From Eledone cirrhosa (lineage: Eukaryota): a stretch of 63,010 bases of DNA. The stretch is taken from NCBI GenBank assembly GCA_964016885.1, contig CAXHJY010000629.1, forward strand, positions 1 to 63,010. Direction: 5' to 3'. Below the pieces are notes generated by a model. That model did not search any database. It saw only the letters and a list, made by a program, of their open reading frames with translations, and had not been told where the DNA came from. Below, piece by piece: positions 9,250 through 61,093 of this stretch; position 1 is the stretch's first letter, and the number at the start of each line of letters is the position of its first letter. Both the position numbers and the translations under genes were made by a program.

Positions 9250-9316
9250 CATATATATATATATATATATATATAAATACATATATATATATATATATAT
9301 ATATAAATACATATAT
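8453..9316. repeat. (TA)n microsatellite with AAATAC interruptions
   Basis: Read directly. The same motif resumes at 10659, after the HHR array. Confidence 0.97.
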
Positions 9317-9437
9317 ATATAGACATAGAATATTCGAAAATATTCTGTATGTTTATAATAAACATTTTGAAGACCTAATCGCTATAGAATAGAATACGTC
9401 ACGTATTACAATTAGATTCTCGATAAAAGCAAGGGAA

Positions 9438-9480
9438 GTAATCTACGCGTTTCATTCTTGTTAGAAATCATCAGGACTAC
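9438..9480 (-). ncRNA. Type I hammerhead ribozyme (family B), inverted copy
   Basis: Exact reverse complement of the motif at 9837-9879. Confidence 0.85.
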
Positions 9481-9836
9481 ATATCCAGTGCTTCTATCGA
9501 GAATGACACAGCTAGAGACTTATAGAATACTTAGCTGTGTACAGGACAAGAATGAAACGCGTAGATTACTTCCCTTGCTTTTATCGAGAATCTAATTGTA
9601 ATACGTGACGTATTCTATTCTATAGCGATTAGGTCTTCAAAATGTTTATTATAAACATACAGAATATTTTCGAATATTCTATGTCTATATTCACATATAT
9701 ATCGCTATTTCAGAGCATTTATTCCAATTTCTAATTTCTGCCGGACCGGCAACCGCTCTTTCAAACCAGTTCCTGTACACAGCTAAGTATTCTATAAGTC
9801 TCTAGCTGTGTCATTCTCGATAGAAGCACTGGATAT

Positions 9837-9879
9837 GTAGTCCTGATGATTTCTAACAAGAATGAAACGCGTAGATTAC
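9837..9879 (+). ncRNA. Type I hammerhead ribozyme (family B) copy 1; predicted cleavage after A9873 (GUA)
   Basis: gtagtc-CTGATGA-t-ttct-aaca-agaa-t-GAAAC-gc-GTA-gattac. Stem I is 6 bp, stem II 4 bp, stem III the palindrome acgcgt. A 16-bp distal helix attctcgatagaagca/tgcttttatcgagaat closes the motif. Confidence 0.88.
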
Positions 9880-10146
9880 TTCCCTTGCTTTTATCGAGAA
9901 TCTAATTGTAATACGTGACGTATTCTATTCTATAGCGATTAGGTCTTCAAAATGTTTATTATAAACATACAGAATATTTTCGAATATTCTATGTCTATAT
10001 TCACATATATATCGCTATTTCAGAGCATTTATTCCAATTTCTAATTTCTGCCGGACCGGCAACCGCTCTTTCAAACCAGTTCCTGTACACAGCTAAGTAT
10101 TCTATAAGTCTCTAGCTGTGTCATTCTCGATAGAAGCACTGGATAT

Positions 10147-10189
10147 GTAGTCCTGATGATTTCTAACAAGAATGAAACGCGTAGATTAC
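10147..10189 (+). ncRNA. Type I hammerhead ribozyme (family B) copy 2; cleavage after A10183
   Basis: Identical to 9837-9879. Confidence 0.88.
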
Positions 10190-10456
10190 TTCCCTTGCTT
10201 TTATCGAGAATCTAATTGTAATACGTGACGTATTCTATTCTATAGCGATTAGGTCTTCAAAATGTTTATTATAAACATACAGAATATTTTCGAATATTCT
10301 ATGTCTATATTCACATATATATCGCTATTTCAGAGCATTTATTCCAATTTCTAATTTCTGCCGGACCGGCAACCGCTCTTTCAAACCAGTTCCTGTACAC
10401 AGCTAAGTATTCTATAAGTCTCTAGCTGTGTCATTCTCGATAGAAGCACTGGATAT

Positions 10457-10499
10457 GTAGTCCTGATGATTTCTAACAAGAATGAAACGCGTAGATTAC
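10457..10499 (+). ncRNA. Type I hammerhead ribozyme (family B) copy 3; cleavage after A10493
   Basis: Identical to 9837-9879. Confidence 0.88.
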
Positions 10500-10656
10500 T
10501 TCCCTTGCTTTTATCGAGAATCTAATTGTAATACGTGACGTATTCTATTCTATAGCGATTAGGTCTTCAAAATGTTTATTATAAACATACAGAATATTTT
10601 CGAATATTCTATGTCTATATTCACATATATATCGCTATTTCAGAGCATTTATTCCA

Positions 10657-10658
<2 letters not shown>

Positions 10659-11440: not shown

Positions 11441-11853
11441 ATGGTGGCTGCCAACTCGTTTTCGAGTACGGCCACTACTTTATATCCATGTAGGAGAACC
11501 CCTACCGATGCGCTGAACGAGTGTGACTTTTTAGTCCAGCCAGCGACTTGAAAACTCTGGTACAAACACTACACCTGTGACAATTATTGACACTTAGTGC
11601 TGGGCCCATGGTACCATGTGACGACAAGTGCAGGGAGATCTCCAGATATAAAGCAATGCCTGTGCCGTGAAGCTTTTATAGTGAGCAAAGGCACTGCACA
11701 AAGCCAGTCCCACTCTCTTAACCAAGATGATATTTACCAAAAAGAAGAACAAGTCAACATCATTGGATACCATCAGAGTTGCAGGTGTTATATCAGAGTT
11801 TTCCTTCTCCTAGAATTCTGCCTTGACAAAGGCTAAGGGGTCATCTCTCCCGG
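11441..11853 (-). mobile_element. About 413-bp non-autonomous RTE-derived element; left arm of an inverted pair
   Basis: Reverse complement of 12530-12940. Contains RTE 5'UTR-like ctaggagaaggaaaactctga and a C-terminal zinc-finger remnant. Confidence 0.7.
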
Positions 11854-11862
11854 TGATTTTGG

Positions 11863-12529
11863 ATATGTATGTATGTATGTATATGTATGTATGTGTATGT
11901 ATGTATGTATATGTATGTATGTGTATGTATGTATGTATATGTATGTATATGTGTATATATGTATGTATGTATATGTGTATGTATATGTATATGTGTATGT
12001 ATGTGTATATGTATGTATATGTATATATGTATGTATGTGTATATGTATGTATATGTGTGTATGTATATGTATGTATGTATGTATATGTGTGTATGTATAT
12101 GTATGTATATGTGTATATGTATGTGTATGTATGTATATGTATGTATGTATGTATGTATATGTATGTATGTATATGTGTGTATGTATATGTATATGTATGT
12201 ATGTATATGTGTATGTATGTGTATATGTATGTATGTATATATGTATGTATGTATATGTGTATGTATGTATATATGTATGTATGTGTATATGTATGTATGT
12301 GTGTGAATGTATATGTATATATGTATGTATATGTGTGTATGTATATATATGTGTGTATGTATGTATATGTGTGTGTATGTATGTGTGTGTGTGTGTGTGT
12401 GTATGTGTGTGTATGTATGTATATGTATGTATGTATGTATATATGTGTGTATGTGTGTGTATATATGTATATATGCGTGTATGTGTGTGTGTATGTGTAT
12501 GTACATGTATGTGTATATGCATGTATATG
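11863..12529. repeat. (TATG)n/(TG)n microsatellite spacer between the inverted elements
   Basis: Read directly from the sequence. Confidence 0.97.
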
Positions 12530-12940
12530 CCGGGAGAGATGACCCCTTAGCCTTTGTCAAGGCAGAATTCTAGGAGAAGGAAAACTCTGATATAACACCT
12601 GCAACCCTGATGGTATCCAATGATGTTGACCTGTTCTTCTTTTTGGTAAATATCATCTTGGTTAAGAGAGTGGGATTGGCTTTGTGCAGTGCCTTTGCTC
12701 ACTATAAAAGCTTCACAGCACAGGCATTGCTTTATATCTGGAGATCTCTCTGCACTTGTCATCACATGGTACCATGGGCCCTGCACTATGTGTCAATAAT
12801 GGTCACAAGTGTAGTCTTTGTGCCAGAGTTTTCAAGTCGCTGGCTGGACTAAAGTCACATTCGTTCAGCGCATCGGTAGGGGTTCTCCTACATGGATATA
12901 AAGTAGTGGCCGTACTCGAAAACGAGTTGGCAGCCACCAT
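12530..12940 (+). mobile_element. About 411-bp non-autonomous RTE-derived element; right arm of the inverted pair, with a (TATG)n tail running to about 13187
   Basis: Encodes [20 protein letters not shown], resembling the C-terminal zinc finger of RTE-BovB-type ORFs; it ends in gcagccaccat followed by the microsatellite. Confidence 0.7.
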
Positions 12941-13187
12941 GTATGTATATGTATATATATGTATATGTATGCATACATGTGCGTACATGCGTGCATATGT
13001 ATGTATGTGTATACATGCATGTGTGTGTGTGTGTATACATATGTATGTATATATATGCATACATGTGTATATGTATGTATGTATGTATGTATGTGTGTAT
13101 GTGTGTGTGTATGTGTATATATATGTATGTATGTGTGTATGTGTGTGTGTATGTGTGTATATATGTATGTATGTGTGTATATGTATG

Positions 13188-13377
13188 TCAGGTCACCAGT
13201 TGGTGCTAATGGTGACATGTATCCCAGTACAACCTGTCCCATGGTCGGGTCGTTGGCGACTAAACTGGCAACCCCACCCAGGTTTCTTGGTGAGGAGGGT
13301 GACTTTGGACATCCTGCAGGACTAAAAACAAAACCTGTCAAAGGGTAAAGGAGCTCTTAAGAGTCAATGGCCATCCA

Positions 13378-13380
<3 letters not shown>
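13188..13380 (+). mobile_element. Short RTE-related non-autonomous fragment
   Basis: ggcgactaaactggcaacccc...aaaacctgtcaaaggg resembles RTE 5'UTR sequence; it ends in gagtcaatggccatccac followed by microsatellite. Confidence 0.4.
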
Positions 13381-16410
<3,030 letters not shown>

Positions 16411-16648
16411 TGCAAAACACGTATATGTATGTATATATATATGTAAACTTTTATATATAATAATCTCCCATTAGGTTGAGATACAAATTTGGCTGTATTG
16501 TGCTGTGCTTTCGAGCAAAAAAGCCACCAGTCGTAAGCAACTACCACACCCCTTCCAAGCTGACCGCGACTACGTCACGATTCCTAGCCATTTTGAATGA
16601 ATTCTTGGCGCGATCACTTTGGAAAATTTAGTGTCTAGATCAGAGCAA

Positions 16649-16746
16649 ATCTCCTGATGAATCCGGTGCTAGAGTTATATAATTATTATATAATTATTAC
16701 ATAATTATTGGAAATCTCAAAATGCGGATGAAACCATGGTAGAGGT
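16649..16746 (+). ncRNA. Type I hammerhead ribozyme (family C) with a long loop II; cleavage after A16741
   Basis: atctc-CTGATGA-atccg-(59 nt)-cggat-GAAAC-catg-GTA-gaggt; stem III is the palindrome accatggt. Confidence 0.82.
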
Positions 16747-17316
16747 ATTTAAATGTATTCTATTTTGTCTTAGTTTATTTTACACCTAATTCTGTTTAGT
16801 TGACTGTATCTGGGCGATTACGCTGTAGAAATATTCGATAAATATTCCGTTGCGGCCGACGCGGAGGGCTAGTTACGGTTATTTGTTGGAGATTTCTTCA
16901 TAGAAGCCTCATTCTTATAACCTGGTCTATTTGATTTTTGATATAGTTAATTATGCTAATTGGGAGAGGAAATGGTATATATTTTATCTTGTGATTCTAT
17001 AGACATGCTTTATGATATATAGCTCTGATTATTTAATTTATTAAATTTTCATTGAGCCACAAAGTGACCCGTTGCAAAACATGTATATGTATATGTATGT
17101 ATATATATATGTAAACTTTTATATGTAATAATCTCCCATTAGGTTGAGATACAAATTTGGCTGTATTGTGCTGTGCTTTCTAGCAAAAAAGCCACCAGTC
17201 GTAAGCAACTACCACACCCCTTCCAACCTGACCGCGACTACGTCACGATTCTTAGCCATTTTGAATGAATTCTTGGCGCGATCACTTTGGAAAATTTCGT
17301 GTCTAGATCAGAGCAA

Positions 17317-17403
17317 ATCTCCTGATGAATCCGGTGCTCGAGTTATATAATTATTACGTAATTATTGGAAATATCAAAATGCGGATGAAACCATGGTAGA
17401 GGT
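17317..17403 (+). ncRNA. Type I hammerhead ribozyme (family C) copy 2; cleavage after A17398
   Basis: Same core and stems as 16649-16746; loop II is 11 nt shorter. Confidence 0.82.
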
Positions 17404-17671
17404 ATTTAAATGTATTCTATTTTCTCCTAGTTTATTTTACACCTAATTCTGTTTAGTTGACTGTATCTGGGCGATTACGCTGTCGAAATATTCGATAAAT
17501 ATTCCGTTGCGGCCGACGCGGAGGGCTAGTTTCGGTTATTTGTTGGAAATTTCTTCATAGAAGCCTCATTCTTATAGCCTGGTCTATTTGATTTTTTATA
17601 TAGTTAATTATGCTAATTGGGAGAGGAAATGGTATATATTTTATCTTGTGATTCTATAGACATGTATTATG

Positions 17672-17718
<47 letters not shown>

Positions 17719-25938: not shown

Positions 25939-28900
25939 AGGAAAATGTTCAAGACTCCGACGGCAGAGCTCAAGCCGTTTCTACGGCTATCTCTCTGTCT
26001 GTATATATGTATGTTATCTCTTTCTCTTAATTTCGAGTATATTTTTTTTTGACCGGCCACCTTCCTGGTGGCAAGGTTGTAAAAGAAAAGAAATTGTCAT
26101 CCCTTGAATCGCAAGAATGTTTTGCAAATTTTGAAGGTGCCAGCTATCGCAGCCATTTGTAGACTATGAATTAGGAAGCTGCGCTTTTTGTCCGCAAATC
26201 CAAGTTCAGTCATACTTTGGTCCAAGCGGGTTGGTATATAACCCGTAGCTCCAATAATGATGGGTATGAAGCTAAAGGTGTATCTTGGATACTGGATTTG
26301 TAAACTCCTCATCAACGGTCCGTAGATGTCCTGCTTCTCCTGTATTTTTCTGACAACGTTTACATCAAGTGGGCAGCTGATCTCCACAACAGAACACGTT
26401 TTCAATGTGTGGTCCCAAACAACAATATCAGGCCGGTTGTGCTTTAATTTGGTGGCAGTTTTTATTTTCAGGTTCCACCAGTATTCCTTGGTGCCATCTG
26501 TCTCAATATATTCTTCCTCGTTTGTTGTTAATTTTGTTTTCCGAAGTGCGTTCCAGATGGTTCTAGCTATCCCATCGTGTCTCATGGGGAGGTAGTAGCG
26601 AGATGACATTCTTTCGCAGCTGGCAACAATGTGGCTTACATCCTCGATCTTTGTTTTACATAGCCTACATTTATTGTCAGCTGCTGGCCCTCCTCTTTTG
26701 TGCAGCAGATATTTGGTAGGGAGCTCTTGTTCCTGTATTGCATAGAGATATCCCTCAAGGTGTGATGTCATAAACTTGTCGGAACTCCGTGCCAGGCTTT
26801 TTGAGTGGTTTATCCCCTCTATGGTCTGTGTTTTACGTCTCAAGTATCCATGCACTACTTTTTCTGTAAATTGGTCAATGTTTTTATCTTGTTTGAACAT
26901 TGAATAGGATCTTCCGATTTCTCTGGGTGAGAGATTTATATCGGGCTTTATTCCATATCTCTCCTCTAGATCAGTGGCTATTCTAATGATATTTTTTTTT
27001 TCATGCTCATAAACCTGGGCAAGATGGTTGCCAACCCTTTTCCTCTGTTGAAGGTGTTGCTTCAGTGTTACGATCCGGGTCTCATATGTTGTTAATATTG
27101 ATTTTAGACCCCGGCCACCTTCTTTGCGTGAGAAGTATAGCCTATCCACATCACCATTGATGTTAAAGTTCCCAGTAACACTGAGAAGTTTGCGAGTTCT
27201 AACATCCATCTCACTTAGTTCTTGCAATGACCAGTTCAGGAGGCCAAATGTTGGCGTTAGAATTGGCACAGCATAAGTACTGTGGGCAATGTATTTGTTG
27301 TACGCTGACAGTTCTGATGACCATATTTTCTTTACTCTTCTGAGGTATTCAGTTCTGGTTCTCTCCTTATTTATGGGTCCATTATATCTGACATTCTCAT
27401 CCTGTCCAAGATATCTGTAGTTGTCACCTCACTGTAGAGGTTGTATTGTCAGGCCGTTCATCTCTAGATTTCTAGAGGAGGGCACAGCTCTTCCACGTTT
27501 TACTGCCAAATATGCACACTTGGACTCACCAAATTTCATTTTGATATCGGTTGAAAATTGTGTAATGAGGTCCAATTGTTTCTTGATGTCATTGATATTT
27601 GGCCCATACAACTTCAGGTCATCAACAAAGAAAAGATGGGAGATACTTCTGGACCCACTTCTTTGTCCACCTTGTTTCCTGAGTAAGTAAGATAGTGAAT
27701 TCAGTGAGAGAACGAAGAGTAGCACTGACAAGCTATCACCCTGAAAGATGCCCTTCTGGTAATATATCTTATCAGTCTTAACTTGCTCCTTCTCACCTCT
27801 AAGGATCAAATTGGTGTACCAGTTCTTGGTCAGGCGTTCAACAGCAGCTACCAATGGTTGTGGGACTTTGGCTAACTGTAAAGCCTTAATAATCCACCCA
27901 TGAGGTACATTATCAAATGCTTTTTGATAGTCCAGCCACACCACAGTCATGTTTCTGCGATTCTTTGTTGTTTTTTCCTGAATCATTTTATTAGTTAGTA
28001 GGTGATCTATGCAACCCCACACCTCCCTCTTTCCACCAGCTTGCTCAGGTGTTATGATGTTGTTGGTAGCACAGTGATCCTGTAAGAACAGGTTAAGGCA
28101 CCCAGTATATAATTTATACATGATGTTTTGACAGGCTATTGGGCGGTAATTTTTAGCAAGGGTGGTTTGGCTATTTTGGGGAATGAGGAGAGTAGTGGCA
28201 GTTGATAACCATCTGGGCAGTTCTTGTGTGCCTTTAATGGTTTCTGTAAACAGCCGTATGAGATCTTGCCGATAGAAAGTGAAATTCTTCAACCAGTACC
28301 CTGTAATGAGGTCTGGGCCTGTCGATTTCCTATTCGACATTTTCTGTAGAGCTGTTTCCAGTATTGACCCATCTATGTTATATTGTTTTGTCTGGACATG
28401 TTGGCAGTAGTCCTGTTCCAGTTCTTTTAGCCAATTAGTTTGTCTGTTGAATCCGTCATCCGTTTCCCATACAGATCTCCAGTAGCTCTCAACCTGTTCT
28501 TTTGAAGGGGTGTCATTTACAGGGATTGAGCTTTTGCCACCGAAGCTGCGATAAACTGATTTAGGTTCTCTGGCAAACAATCTATTTAGCACTTGTCGTT
28601 TATGTGCTGTTGACTTATATTTTAGTCTTTCTGTTGTAGTTGTGAGTTGTTGTTTCAACTGGTGTAATTTGGAGTTCAAAGTTTTAAATTTTGTATCTCC
28701 AAATCGTCTCTCTAACTTTTTTTTTTTAGGTCTTCCTGGTGTAGTGTGAAGTTGCTCTCTATGTTGCATTTCATAACGACTGCGATGTATGAGATACTTC
28801 GTCTCAGGGACAAAATTTTGGTTTTTAAATTTCGCATCCACGCTGGTTCAGGCTTTCTGTTTGTATCTTGATTGCATGGTTTTAGATTTGTGTTATATGA

Positions 28901-30216
28901 TAGCAATGTGACAGCTGAAACATATAACAAAATATTAAGCGTTTCAAATGTCGTTTCTACACCTTTAGATCGTATAGCCTTCAGATAATTGCCAGCTATT
29001 TCGTTCACCGCTTCCAATTCCAATTTACTGGGTTCTTTACTGATTCTGGTGTTGTATGGTCTGTCACTCACATTAAGGCTGTGTATCTCTTGAAACATAT
29101 CGTTCCATATCACTTGTAAGGTGTCCACAAGTTTTTGGTGTTCTGTTTGTTCAGTAGAGTCATGAATTTCAGCCTCGTTGTTGATGTGGTGACAATTACT
29201 ACTAGAGTTAGCTGACCTTTCTCACTGTTCTTCAGTGGAAGTGGGATGGATTTCAGCAAAATTATTGGTGAGCTGTTCACTGTTAGATTTAGCTGGCCAT
29301 TCTCTTTGTCTGTCAGTGGCGGTGGGGTGGTTGTCTACAAGGGCTGTATTTGTAGTATCACTCAATTCCGTTAGATGTATCAATTTACATCTAATGATAC
29401 GTTTTGCCTGTTCATTTAAATGCGTTGGAGAAAAGTCTAATTCTGGGTGTTTGGAGTTCCATAAAGTTTTTAAAACTTTGCATAAAACCGAACTTTTAGG
29501 GTTCAGATTGTTTGTATGCTTCATATAATTCTTTGTTAAGCTCGTAGTTCCACTGTATACAACGGTTGTAGTTGCGATTTGGTCGAAGGAGACTTGTACT
29601 TTTTGCCATGATGAGTTCGTCTATTCACTAATATTTCGTATTTATTTTTCAAAATAGTCGATGATCTTCTTTAAAAGTTTCGACAAAGTTCTGTCAGAAT
29701 CAAATTTAAAGTTATTCACAGCTTGGGTAATATTTCTTTTCAGTTAGTTTTTAATTCTACAACTGTGTTTTAAACGTTGTTCTTGAATCGTTTGAATCGA
29801 GAACAAAAAGAACCGTGACTTAGTATATTTCTTTATGAATGTAATATAATATAACAACGCTGTATTTATATGTTAAAGTTTATGTATCATTCATATAAAT
29901 AGGTGTTCCACAACTTATTCACAACATATTCACAGTTCAAACACTTATGTTTTTGTTTCTGAATCGAAAACGTTACTTGTATATTTCTTTATAAATGTAA
30001 TATAACAACGTTGCATTTATATGTTAAAGTGTATGTATCGTTCATATAAATAGGTGTTTTACAACACACTTACAGTTCAAACACTTATGTAGAATTATTG
30101 TATGTAATCTTACCGCGTAATGTAGCTCAACTTTTTCCAATATATGGTATGTTGCCTTCATGTAAGCCGTAATTACACACGTCCGATTATCGGACACTGA
30201 CCACAACGGTCGCCAT
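25939..30216 (-). mobile_element. Near full-length R4/Dong-clade non-LTR retrotransposon (RT, CCHC and restriction-like endonuclease)
   Basis: NYRPIAC, WLDYQKAFD, GIFQGDSLS, FVDDLKLY, CRLC...H...C, RHD, RPDIV...VEISCP. Both ends abut TA tracts. Confidence 0.92.
26097..29609 (-). pseudogene. Disrupted single ORF (about 1170 aa) of the R4 element
   Basis: ATG at 29609 starts MAKSTSLL...QWNYELNKELYEAYKQSEP*. In-frame stops near 29497, 29222 and 27429; frameshifts near 29470 and in the 11-nt homopolymer at about 28717-28727. Confidence 0.85.
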
Positions 30217-54074: not shown

Positions 54075-54145
54075 TAGCAGAGCGTAGTTTCGATCTACGG
54101 ACCTTGGGTTATGGGCCCAGCACGCTTCCACTGCGCCACTCTGCT
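54075..54145 (-). tRNA. tRNA-iMet-CAT: Initiator tRNA-Met (CAT), 71 nt, 1 nt shorter than canonical
   Basis: AGCAGAG-TG-GCGC-AGTGGAA-GCGT-G-CTGGG-CCCATAA-CCCA-AGGTC-CGTAG-ATCGAAA-CTACG-CTCTGCT-A. Shows the initiator hallmarks A1:U72, three G:C anticodon-stem pairs and an ATCG T-loop. Confidence 0.92.
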
Positions 54146-59422: not shown

Positions 59423-61093
59423 ACTCTTTTACTCTTTTACCTGTTTCAGCCATCCGGCTGAGGCCATGCTGGGGCACCGCCCTTGTTGCTACACATTTTA
59501 TCTCCAGCCTGTATAGGTTGGCCACTGGTGTAGGAGGGAGTTTGTTGCTGCTGCCCTTAGGTTTCCCTCGTGTCTTGCTGTGGGCTCATCCGGGATCCTG
59601 GATAACAAGGTGTCGAGATGTTTCTTAAAGACATCCACCTCCACGTCATGCAAGTCTCGCAGATGCCTCGGCAGCCTGTTGAAGAGTTGAGGGCCCTTGA
59701 ATCCCAGGCTATTGCAATACCTGCTCCTTATTCTAGATGTGGAAGACGAGACTTTTGGCACCACACAGTGACGTCCTGTTCGACGGTTGGTCCAGCTCCC
59801 AATGCCAAAGTTTGGTGCTAGTCCCTCCAGGATTTTCCACATGTAGATCACTGCGTATCTCTCCCGTCTTCGCTCCAAGGAGTAGAGGTTCAGTTCCTTC
59901 AGCCTCTCCCAGTAGCTTGTCTCCCTCATCTTGGTAATCCTCTTGGTGTAGCTTCGCTGGATTGCCTCAAGCTCTGTGGTTAGTTAGACACTATGGGGTG
60001 ACCACAGCTGGGAGCAGTAGTCCAGGCGGCTTAGGACAAAAGTCCTCCACAGTGTCAACATGGTGTCTCGATCTCTTGTAAGGAAAGTCCTCAAGATCCA
60101 GCCAGCGAATCATGATGTGTGAAGAAAAAGATGCATCATCGCTCATGTCTATGCCCAGGTCTCGTATCGATTTTGACACGGGGATATCGGTCCCTCCTGG
60201 TCCTGTGTAGCTGTGTTCCGCTATATTTGTGTTTGTGTTTGCAGGTTTGTATTGTAGGGCTTGGAATTTGCCAGCATTAAACTGCATGTTGTTTTCTTCC
60301 GCCCATCTGTATATGGCATCCAGATCCTGCTGTAAGAGGACAGCGTCAGCCGGGTTTTTGATTGCCTGTGCTACCTTAGTGTCATCAGCATAGCTAGTGA
60401 GGGATGTTGTTGCATGCACCACAGAGGGCATGTCCGAGAGAGCCACCAAAAGCAGTAGTGGTCCCAGGACTGTCCCCTGAGGCACCCCACTTGTTATCGG
60501 TGTTTCCCTCGAGAGGGCCCCATTTTCTGCGACTGCCTGGCTTCTGTCCCTTAGGAAGCCATGCAGCCACTCACCTACTTTTCCAGTTATGCCGAGTCCG
60601 TGTAGTTTGTGACATATCATTCCGTGGTCGACCTTGTCAAAGGCCTTCGCAAAGTCAAGATATATCACGTCTACATGTGAGCTGTCTAGTAGTTGTCTCA
60701 GTACCCAGTCGTAGTGATGTAGCAGCTGTGTAAGGCAGCTTCTTCCTGGGCGGAAGCCATGTTGCGTGCTAGTCAGGCGGTCATTTTCTTCGATGAAAGT
60801 GATTAGTTTCTTTCTGACGACTCGCTCCATGACCTTACTGATATGCTCTACTACCTCCTTTATGGATAGGGCATATTGTGCCTTCTTTCAGCTCCCTGGG
60901 TAGGACACCGCTAGCCAAGGAGCTTCTGAAGAGCATCTTCAGTGGAGTTGCTAAGGCCCGCTTACATATTTTTAGGAGAACTGCTGGGAATCCTTCAGGT
61001 CCAGCAGCCGAGTCTGTTCTAATTTCATCAATGGCGTACACCACATCCTCCTCCGTTATGTCTATGTGGTTGATGGTTGCCATTTCTTGATGT
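59423..61093 (-). mobile_element. 5'-truncated CR1-like LINE (RT and 3'UTR) with small internal deletions
   Basis: QHGFRPGRSCLTQL, YLDFAKAFDKVDH, SGVPQGTVLGP, YADDTK, LYSLERRRER; tail (gtaaaaga)n. Confidence 0.92.

What the first reader, a model, noticed from the sequence alone, without database searches (positions are those of the whole stretch)
16411..17676. About 660-bp tandem dimer carrying hammerheads with a large, length-variable loop II
Seen: both copies keep a perfect core, the 5-bp atccg/cggat stem II, stem I and the ACCATGGT stem III. Loop II is 59 nt in one copy and 48 nt in the other and is built from palindromic ataattat repeats. The roughly 17 substitutions and the 11-nt indel all fall outside the core and stems. 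Inferred: a second, larger self-cleaving repeat that would release a 657-nt RNA (16742-17398). With so few changes, sparing of the core may be chance.
Basis: partly seen in the sequence, partly recalled or inferred. Interest (0 to 1): 0.75.

Follow-up and report, generated by a model that had tools for sequence, protein, structure and literature searches.

The report
Knotted hammerhead in a jumping repeat
The two repeats are one copy of a protein-free jumping element found in hundreds of places in this animal genome, likely pasted in by Penelope-type retrotransposon enzymes, and its predicted self-cutting RNA motif has an oversized loop that likely folds into a knot plus an extra hairpin, a form that the standard RNA library misses.

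Summary
The dimer, both hammerhead cores, the 59/48-nt loops and the 657-nt spacing are real. It is one insertion of a dispersed non-coding retrozyme family (1,596 pattern hits, 0 in the control). The insertions have Penelope-like (PLE) anatomy: (TA)n targets, inverted arms, and two fixed 3' ends 106 nt apart, each just before a bulged hairpin. 18 of 19 two-armed insertions use one end of each kind. The loop is not variable filler. It is 48-49 nt in this subfamily; 59 nt is a private slippage. Its 5' part pairs with the five bases upstream of stem I (a pseudoknot), with compensatory changes and the same layout in a distant family, followed by an inserted hairpin. Core sparing between the two copies is chance: genomic copies decay evenly (core 2.5%, flanks 2.3%). 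Cleavage, transcription and circles are untested, and no partner PLE was found among seven families sampled. The scan had already noted PLE-type ends and twin hairpins on other retrozyme families of this genome; I found no note on this unit or its pseudoknot. Verdict: new variant of a known kind.

The parts
16411..17678 (+). One insertion of the ~657-bp element: 5'-truncated partial unit, one full monomer, 280-nt 3' part ending at fixed end T1
13379..16410 (.). (TA)n-type microsatellite at the 5' flank; short microhomology with the truncated 5' end
17672..17716 (.). (TA)n target tract directly after the 3' end T1
16643..16747 (+). Type I hammerhead, copy 1 (core 16654-16660 and 16730-16733; stem I 16648-16653 with 16742-16747; stem II 16661-16665 with 16725-16729; palindromic stem III 16733-16740; predicted cut after 16741)
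17311..17404 (+). Type I hammerhead, copy 2 (core 17322-17328 and 17387-17390; stem II 17329-17333 with 17382-17386; stem III 17390-17397; predicted cut after 17398)
16643..16671 (+). Predicted pseudoknot, copy 1: 16643-16647 pairs with 16667-16671; end pair broken by a private change at 16671
17311..17339 (+). Predicted pseudoknot, copy 2: 17311-17315 pairs with 17335-17339 (5 bp, intact)
16672..16718 (+). Hairpin inserted in loop II, copy 1, lengthened by a private 11-nt slippage duplication
17340..17375 (+). Hairpin inserted in loop II, copy 2, followed by a conserved A-rich linker (17376-17381)
16742..17398 (+). 657-nt monomer that double cleavage would release (predicted)
   Evidence: circular fold z=-2.2 against 60 shuffles
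17016..17127 (+). PLE-type 'tail' between the two fixed 3' ends T1 (monomer position 280) and T2 (386)
17022..17057 (+). Bulged hairpin H1 just after T1; shared with the distant ACTGCAGT family and further families
17131..17150 (+). Bulged hairpin H2 just after T2 (also 16463-16482); stem constant, loop variable across subfamilies
17273..17280 (+). TTGGCGCG, conserved across subfamilies about 45 nt upstream of the core (also 16605-16612); resembles an E2F site (label recalled, untested)

Best explanation
This is one decaying copy of a non-coding repeat family whose insertions carry the two-end 'tail' and inverted-arm pattern of Penelope-like elements (PLEs), so it is likely a non-autonomous retrozyme copied by a PLE reverse transcriptase, and its hammerhead likely uses a 5-bp pseudoknot between loop II and the bases upstream of stem I, with an extra hairpin inserted in that loop. 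Shown: dispersed family, (TA)n targets, two fixed 3' ends each followed by a bulged hairpin, copies running across the cleavage site, covarying stems and pseudoknot. Inferred: tandem copies are transcribed; the pseudoknot docks stems I and II in place of the usual loop-loop contact; the weak palindromic stem III makes cleavage better as a double hammerhead; 657-nt monomers are released and probably circularised; a PLE enzyme nicks (TA)n and starts reverse transcription inside the RNA at T1 or T2, placed by the hairpins, copying more than one unit length.
For: Family size: 3,071 first-look candidates (40 scored); 1,596 motif hits vs 0 control; only 15 with a short loop. Ends: of 54 loci, 19 have two opposite arms and 18 of these end in one T1 and one T2 (p=4e-5 against 0.5). 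This matches the PLE tail (PMC8557442) and the two internal RT start sites shown in vitro for a PLE (PMC11167929). Coding Neptune-like PLEs in this genome also end at two sites before (TA)n. 29 of 30 anchor-selected copies continue 5' of the cleavage site. Units within a locus share lineage variants (6.6% vs 32.4% differences at 51 diagnostic sites). Structure: on 48 rows 90.4% of cells pair, 0/500 shuffles reach that; pseudoknot 92.7%; one pair U-A 32 / C-G 13. Next pair G-C 17, A-U 8, mismatch 1 of 26 scorable rows (read by eye). Best flank-loop helix averages 4.7 (n=80) and 4.9 (n=31) Watson-Crick pairs with its own partner vs 3.1 across clans and 3.2 shuffled. The distant ACTGCAGT family has the same layout with other letters, in two sub-variants. 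Pseudoknots between stems I and II are known to raise hammerhead activity (PMC3088659).
Against: No cleavage, transcript or circle was observed. No coding PLE carrying this unit or its hairpins was found among seven families sampled. The pseudoknot changes in clan 1 are only about three events on the tree, one of them of CpG-decay type, and three of its five pairs are near-invariant. Random partners within a clan still give 4.2-4.4 pairs. In clan 2, 6 of 31 copies have fewer than 4 Watson-Crick pairs. The closing pair of stem II is often mismatched (9 of 48 rows). Energy folding does not favour the hammerhead (z +0.4 to +0.8 for the window copies; absent from the circular MFE). In the PLE tested in vitro, hammerhead cleavage was not needed for insertion, and 8 of 9 Xenopus retrozyme dimers did not cleave.
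Confidence: 0.7

Rival explanations
1. Same element and same PLE machinery, but the template is the uncleaved multimeric transcript; the hammerhead is slow, protein-assisted or not needed for mobility, and no 657-nt circle forms.
For: PMC11167929: hammerhead mutants insert normally and unprocessed RNA is the main substrate. Most insertions hold only 1-3 units. A head-to-tail array of 30 or more units exists as a possible source for a sister subfamily. Read-through of the cut site and shared variants within a locus fit this equally well.
Against: Stems and pseudoknot covary between source lineages, so the fold is under selection. Circles are shown for coral, mussel and axolotl retrozymes (PMC7229834).
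Confidence: 0.3
2. The unit is the pseudo-LTR of a coding PLE that I did not sample or that is extinct, and the copies are its 5'-truncated remains.
For: PLE pLTRs carry such hammerheads (PMC4209133); Xenopus retrozymes resemble pLTRs; two loci have the unit next to a PLE end (L111, L130).
Against: Units join head-to-tail to themselves in every multi-unit locus examined. In L111 and L130 the PLE has its own different 3' end and sister copies lack the unit. A tblastn of about 235 loci, most of them retrozyme loci, gave PLE-locus hits in 18, with no shared position.
Confidence: 0.12
3. The 5' part of loop II is not an activating pseudoknot but part of an off-switch: the same three bases could pair with the strand 3' of the cut site, or the 5' flank could close a small hairpin on the 5' strand of stem I.
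For: The flank self-hairpin appears in the MFE of window copy 2; the short repeated words make these pairings possible in clan 1.
Against: The compensatory changes link flank and loop, not loop and 3' strand. Clan 2, L132 and L143 keep flank-loop pairing with other letters.
Confidence: 0.12
4. A local tandem duplication of ordinary satellite DNA with a chance hammerhead-like motif.
For: AT-rich, microsatellite-rich surroundings; Rfam reports no hammerhead.
Against: 1,596 dispersed motif hits vs 0 control; covarying stems; fixed 3' ends at (TA)n.
Confidence: 0.01

Closest known systems
Metazoan non-LTR retrozymes (Cervera and de la Pena 2020, PMC7229834, results read; Li, Clavereau, Pollet 2026, bioRxiv 10.64898/2026.07.22.740005, abstract to discussion read)
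   Same: Non-coding head-to-tail units, one type I hammerhead each, GC below 50%, short palindromic stem III, co-occurrence with PLEs; 657 bp lies inside the 51-972 bp range of the preprint.
   Different: Longer than the 170-400 nt invertebrate examples. Loop II is 37-49 nt with a Watson-Crick pseudoknot strand and an inserted hairpin; the described ones use non-canonical loop 1/loop 2 contacts or lack them. Circular RNA not shown here.
PLE insertion anatomy and internal RT initiation (Craig et al. 2021, PMC8557442, section 6 and passages; Frangieh et al. 2024, PMC11167929, main text)
   Same: 5' truncation, partial tandems, inverted arm, (TA)n target, tail on one end only, two start sites downstream of the hammerhead near a stem-loop.
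   Different: No ORF; tail is 106 nt rather than 30-40 nt; each end has its own bulged hairpin; the helper element is not identified.
Pseudoknot-stabilised hammerheads, including the human C10orf118 ribozyme (Perreault et al. 2011, PMC3088659, passages and section 10; figures not seen)
   Same: A helix of 4 or more base pairs links the stem I and stem II regions; reported for all three types, about 40% of representatives; 5 bp in C10.
   Different: Here it sits in a high-copy animal retrozyme, is combined with a dimer-type palindromic stem III, and loop II also holds a hairpin. I could not compare the exact wiring with their type I figures.
PLE hammerhead variants with palindromic helix III (Cervera and de la Pena 2014, PMC4209133, results and discussion read)
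   Same: Short palindromic stem III, predicted dimer cleavage, variable base of stem II.
   Different: Those have a long plain helix II and poorly defined tertiary contacts; no pseudoknot or multi-part loop II is described there.

Membership tests
Type I hammerhead ribozyme | Core CUGANGA, GAAA and NUH in type I order with stems I-III | tested here: met
   GUA triplet; position 7 varies U/A between lineages
Type I hammerhead ribozyme | Covarying stems I and II | tested here: met
   stem I 89.6%, stem II 92.1% paired, changes on both sides in 3 of 6 and 4 of 5 pairs
Type I hammerhead ribozyme | Match to an Rfam hammerhead model | tested here: not met
   Searches (150 of 249 rows shown; all 9 rows): no hammerhead family; the long loop is the likely cause
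Type I hammerhead ribozyme | Self-cleavage | not testable with these tools
   needs a bench assay
Pseudoknot-type hammerhead | Helix of at least 4 bp between loop II and the stem I extension, with compensatory changes | tested here: met
   about three independent events in clan 1 plus other letters in clan 2
Pseudoknot-type hammerhead | Pseudoknot needed for fast cleavage | not testable with these tools
   mutation and rescue assay
Metazoan non-LTR retrozyme | Non-coding head-to-tail units, one type I hammerhead each, at least two consecutive intact motifs | tested here: met
Metazoan non-LTR retrozyme | Dispersed multi-copy family in a genome with coding PLEs | tested here: met
Metazoan non-LTR retrozyme | Highly self-paired monomer | tested here: inconclusive
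   62% paired, z=-2.2 against 60 shuffles for one decayed copy
Metazoan non-LTR retrozyme | Expressed as linear and circular monomer RNA | not testable with these tools
   needs RNA data or northern blot
Non-autonomous PLE | Tail, inverted 5'-truncated arm, partial tandems, microsatellite target | tested here: met
Non-autonomous PLE | 3' end or pLTR shared with a coding PLE family | tested here: not met
   none in seven families sampled; the sample is partial, so I file it as working like one, helper unknown

The most novel reading that the evidence does not exclude
An animal retrozyme lineage uses an undescribed hammerhead build, with a Watson-Crick pseudoknot docking loop II on the 5' flank of stem I, a swappable hairpin inside loop II and a dimer-only stem III. 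It carries twin bulged hairpins that tell a PLE reverse transcriptase where to start on a 657-nt circle. Long-loop hammerheads of this kind would be a large class missed by current descriptors.
Probability: 0.35. Interest if true: 0.7.

Novelty: new variant of a known kind. Interest (0 to 1): 0.48.

Why it matters
If it cleaves, it adds a hammerhead architecture that Rfam and short-loop descriptors miss, present in at least 1,600 places of one genome, so retrozyme counts in animals may be too low. A natural tolerated hairpin slot in loop II beside a simple pseudoknot is useful for ribozyme design. The strict one-T1, one-T2 rule and the hairpin behind each end give a direct test of the long-proposed PLE-retrozyme partnership, using the published in vitro PLE assay. 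The element class, the pseudoknot principle and the PLE tail are each already known, which caps the score.

Tried and rejected
Rfam gave no hammerhead. Sequencing runs: no RNA holder listed; three unlabelled runs of one study hold about 0.4 of the words; no reads were laid, so there is no read evidence either way. Metagenome pattern scan: 10 hits, none with a stem I above 2 bp, rejected as chance. Viral contigs: 0. Core sparing as evidence of selection: rejected. Pile-up of 5' ends at the cut site: 1 of 30, with microhomology, rejected. Helper search: 30 GIY-YIG loci, 20 extended regions (9 of them extensions of the former), 30 loci of a sixth family and 12 of a Hydra-like seventh; none carries the unit or its hairpins as its own end. 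L111 and L130 are nested insertions. L276 joins a Neptune arm head-to-head to a unit, but the PLE's 3' end was not found within 20 kb, so it is suggestive only. An unguided column scan for covariation was dominated by phylogeny and not used. Alignment A2 had two rows on the wrong strand and was dropped. A3 (21 of 31 clan 2 rows) was not pair-counted because its sub-variants differ in register. The tree includes 5'-truncated rows with inflated branches; only its topology was used. The bacterial promoter scan is not informative. Core invariance across subfamilies is built into my search patterns and is not counted as evidence. Literature searches for this architecture or family found no description. 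Lunse et al. 2017 is not held (known only through PMC6765202 passages). Figures, the preprint's supplements and the supplements of PMC7229834 and PMC4209133 were not seen and could hold a similar fold.

Full report
Observation. The stretch 16411-17678 holds two direct copies, 95.3% identical, with one 11-nt indel. Each has a full type I hammerhead core, a 5-bp stem II, a palindromic stem III and a GUA site. The predicted cuts after 16741 and 17398 are 657 nt apart. The array lies between a 3-kb (TA)n-type tract and a short (TA)n tract. Rfam does not report a hammerhead.

It is a mobile family. The window lies in a 3.0-Gb animal genome; earlier scan notes call it octopus-like, which I did not test. 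A DNA search gave 3,071 candidates, of which 40 were scored. The exact motif has 206 hits and a looser one 1,596, both against 0 for the reversed control. Only 15 hits have a loop short enough for usual descriptors. A 25-nt anchor specific to the window's subfamily has 517 hits. Sister subfamilies are about 70-80% identical, with the same unit length. One forms an array of 30 or more units.

Loop II. It is 48-49 nt in the window's subfamily (37 of 37 sampled) and 37-41 nt in the others (43 of 43, which left out the window's 59-nt copy by its length limit). None of the 100 listed hits has 59 nt, so that loop is a private slippage. The loop has three parts: a short strand, a hairpin, and an A-rich linker. 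The short strand is complementary to the five bases just upstream of stem I. On 48 aligned rows the whole structure pairs in 90.4% of cells (0 of 500 shuffles), the pseudoknot in 92.7%, with U-A in 32 and C-G in 13 rows at one pair. The next pair is G-C in 17, A-U in 8 and mismatched in 1 of 26 scorable rows of an anchor-selected sample of 30 (read by eye; some rows share an insertion). On a tree of 42 units these are about three events, one of CpG-decay type. A distant family with stem III ACTGCAGT (58 hits) has the same layout with different letters, in two sub-variants; single loci L132 and L143 show it again, L132 without the inserted hairpin. The best flank-loop helix averages 4.7 and 4.9 Watson-Crick pairs with its own partner, 4.2-4.4 with a random partner of the same clan, 3.1 across clans and 3.2 shuffled. 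Such pseudoknots activate hammerheads in published tests (PMC3088659, passages). Against: energy folding does not favour the hammerhead, and the base pair closing stem II is mismatched in 9 of 48 rows.

Core sparing. The chance that 14 substitutions miss 41 core and stem bases is 0.33. Across 58 segments from 28 loci the core differs at 2.5% and the flanks at 2.3%. All 14 differences between the window copies are private, so the two units were alike at insertion and decayed on their own. One change (16671) breaks the pseudoknot end pair of copy 1.

Insertion anatomy. Copies are 5'-truncated at scattered points, form partial tandems, and often have an inverted arm. They end at one of two fixed points, T1 (monomer position 280) or T2 (386), nearly always followed by (TA)n. 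Of 54 loci, 19 have two opposite arms and 18 of these use one T1 and one T2; one of the 18 also had a spurious extra T1 match. This is the PLE tail (PMC8557442, section 6), which in vitro is the gap between two internal start sites of reverse transcription (PMC11167929, main text). A bulged hairpin starts 7 nt after T1 and is shared with the distant family. After earlier scan notes mentioned twin hairpins, I looked behind T2 and found a second one of the same shape, with constant stem and variable loop. 29 of 30 copies run across the cleavage site, and units of one locus share lineage variants (6.6% against 32.4%). The template was therefore a circle or an uncleaved multimer; the data do not separate these.

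Helper. Coding PLEs with RT and GIY-YIG domains are abundant, end at (TA)n, and show their own tails. None of seven families sampled carries this unit or its hairpins. L111 and L130 are nested insertions; L276 is a head-to-head join with a Neptune arm that could be a hybrid insertion but is incomplete.

Mechanism. Shown: family, targets, ends, hairpins, covariation. Inferred: transcription of tandems; pseudoknot-assisted, probably dimeric cleavage, as for other short palindromic stems III (PMC4209133, PMC7229834); release and likely circularisation of 657-nt RNA; internal priming by a PLE enzyme at T1 and T2. I put the PLE-mobilised retrozyme reading at about 0.85, the pseudoknot at 0.8 and the circle at 0.5. 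The main rival is an uncleaved multimer as template, as in the one PLE tested. 8 of 9 Xenopus retrozyme dimers did not cleave in vitro, so activity cannot be assumed.

Comparison and novelty. It meets the testable features of a non-LTR retrozyme, works like a non-autonomous PLE, and lacks an identified partner. Pseudoknot hammerheads are known since 2011. I found no description of one with a hairpin inserted in loop II in an animal retrozyme, but figures, several supplements and Lunse et al. 2017 were not seen. PMC6765202 and PMC7761336 were read as passages. The scan has noted PLE-type ends, twin hairpins and another oversized hammerhead on other DNA of this genome; look-ups by sequence found nothing for this unit. 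Verdict: new variant of a known kind, interest 0.48.

Noticed in passing
window 9307-10658: 310-bp retrozyme: 3.6 identical direct units plus an inverted arm, compact hammerhead with a U.U pair at the base of stem II and a 6-nt palindromic stem III; 14,689 motif hits genome-wide, many in two-armed arrays; circular fold z=-3.8.
   Followed up: partly
window 11444-11863 and 12527-13378: About 420-bp element in inverted arrangement around a (TATG)n tract; seen, not analysed.
   Followed up: no
G000:C1:92986000-93015000 (L110, L282): Array of 30 or more ~660-bp units of a sister subfamily with a six-unit higher-order repeat; many units have a damaged stem II.
   Followed up: partly
L276:2690-4700: 5'-truncated Neptune-like PLE arm joined head-to-head to a 657-family arm that ends at T2; possible hybrid insertion, PLE 3' end not found.
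   Followed up: partly
L122, L062, L123 (3' UTRs): Coding Neptune-like PLEs carry hammerheads with palindromic stem III; two families appear to use the U3-A8 core variant.
   Followed up: partly
L146-L175 (most rows): Another abundant family with a ~48-nt stretch between the core halves and a GUC site, making up most of the listed rows of the 1,128 hits; its fold was not worked out.
   Followed up: no
L320, L325, L328: Abundant young PLE family (18,759 candidates) with a C-terminal endonuclease that looks Hydra-like by eye, a short hammerhead and its own tail; clade not tested.
   Followed up: partly
window 26097-29620 (-) and 59498-60887 (-): Broken non-LTR retrotransposon reading frames with RVT_1 and zf-RVT matches.
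   Followed up: partly
window 54075-54145 (-): tRNA-like match above the Rfam gathering score (48.7 bits); may be a SINE head.
   Followed up: no
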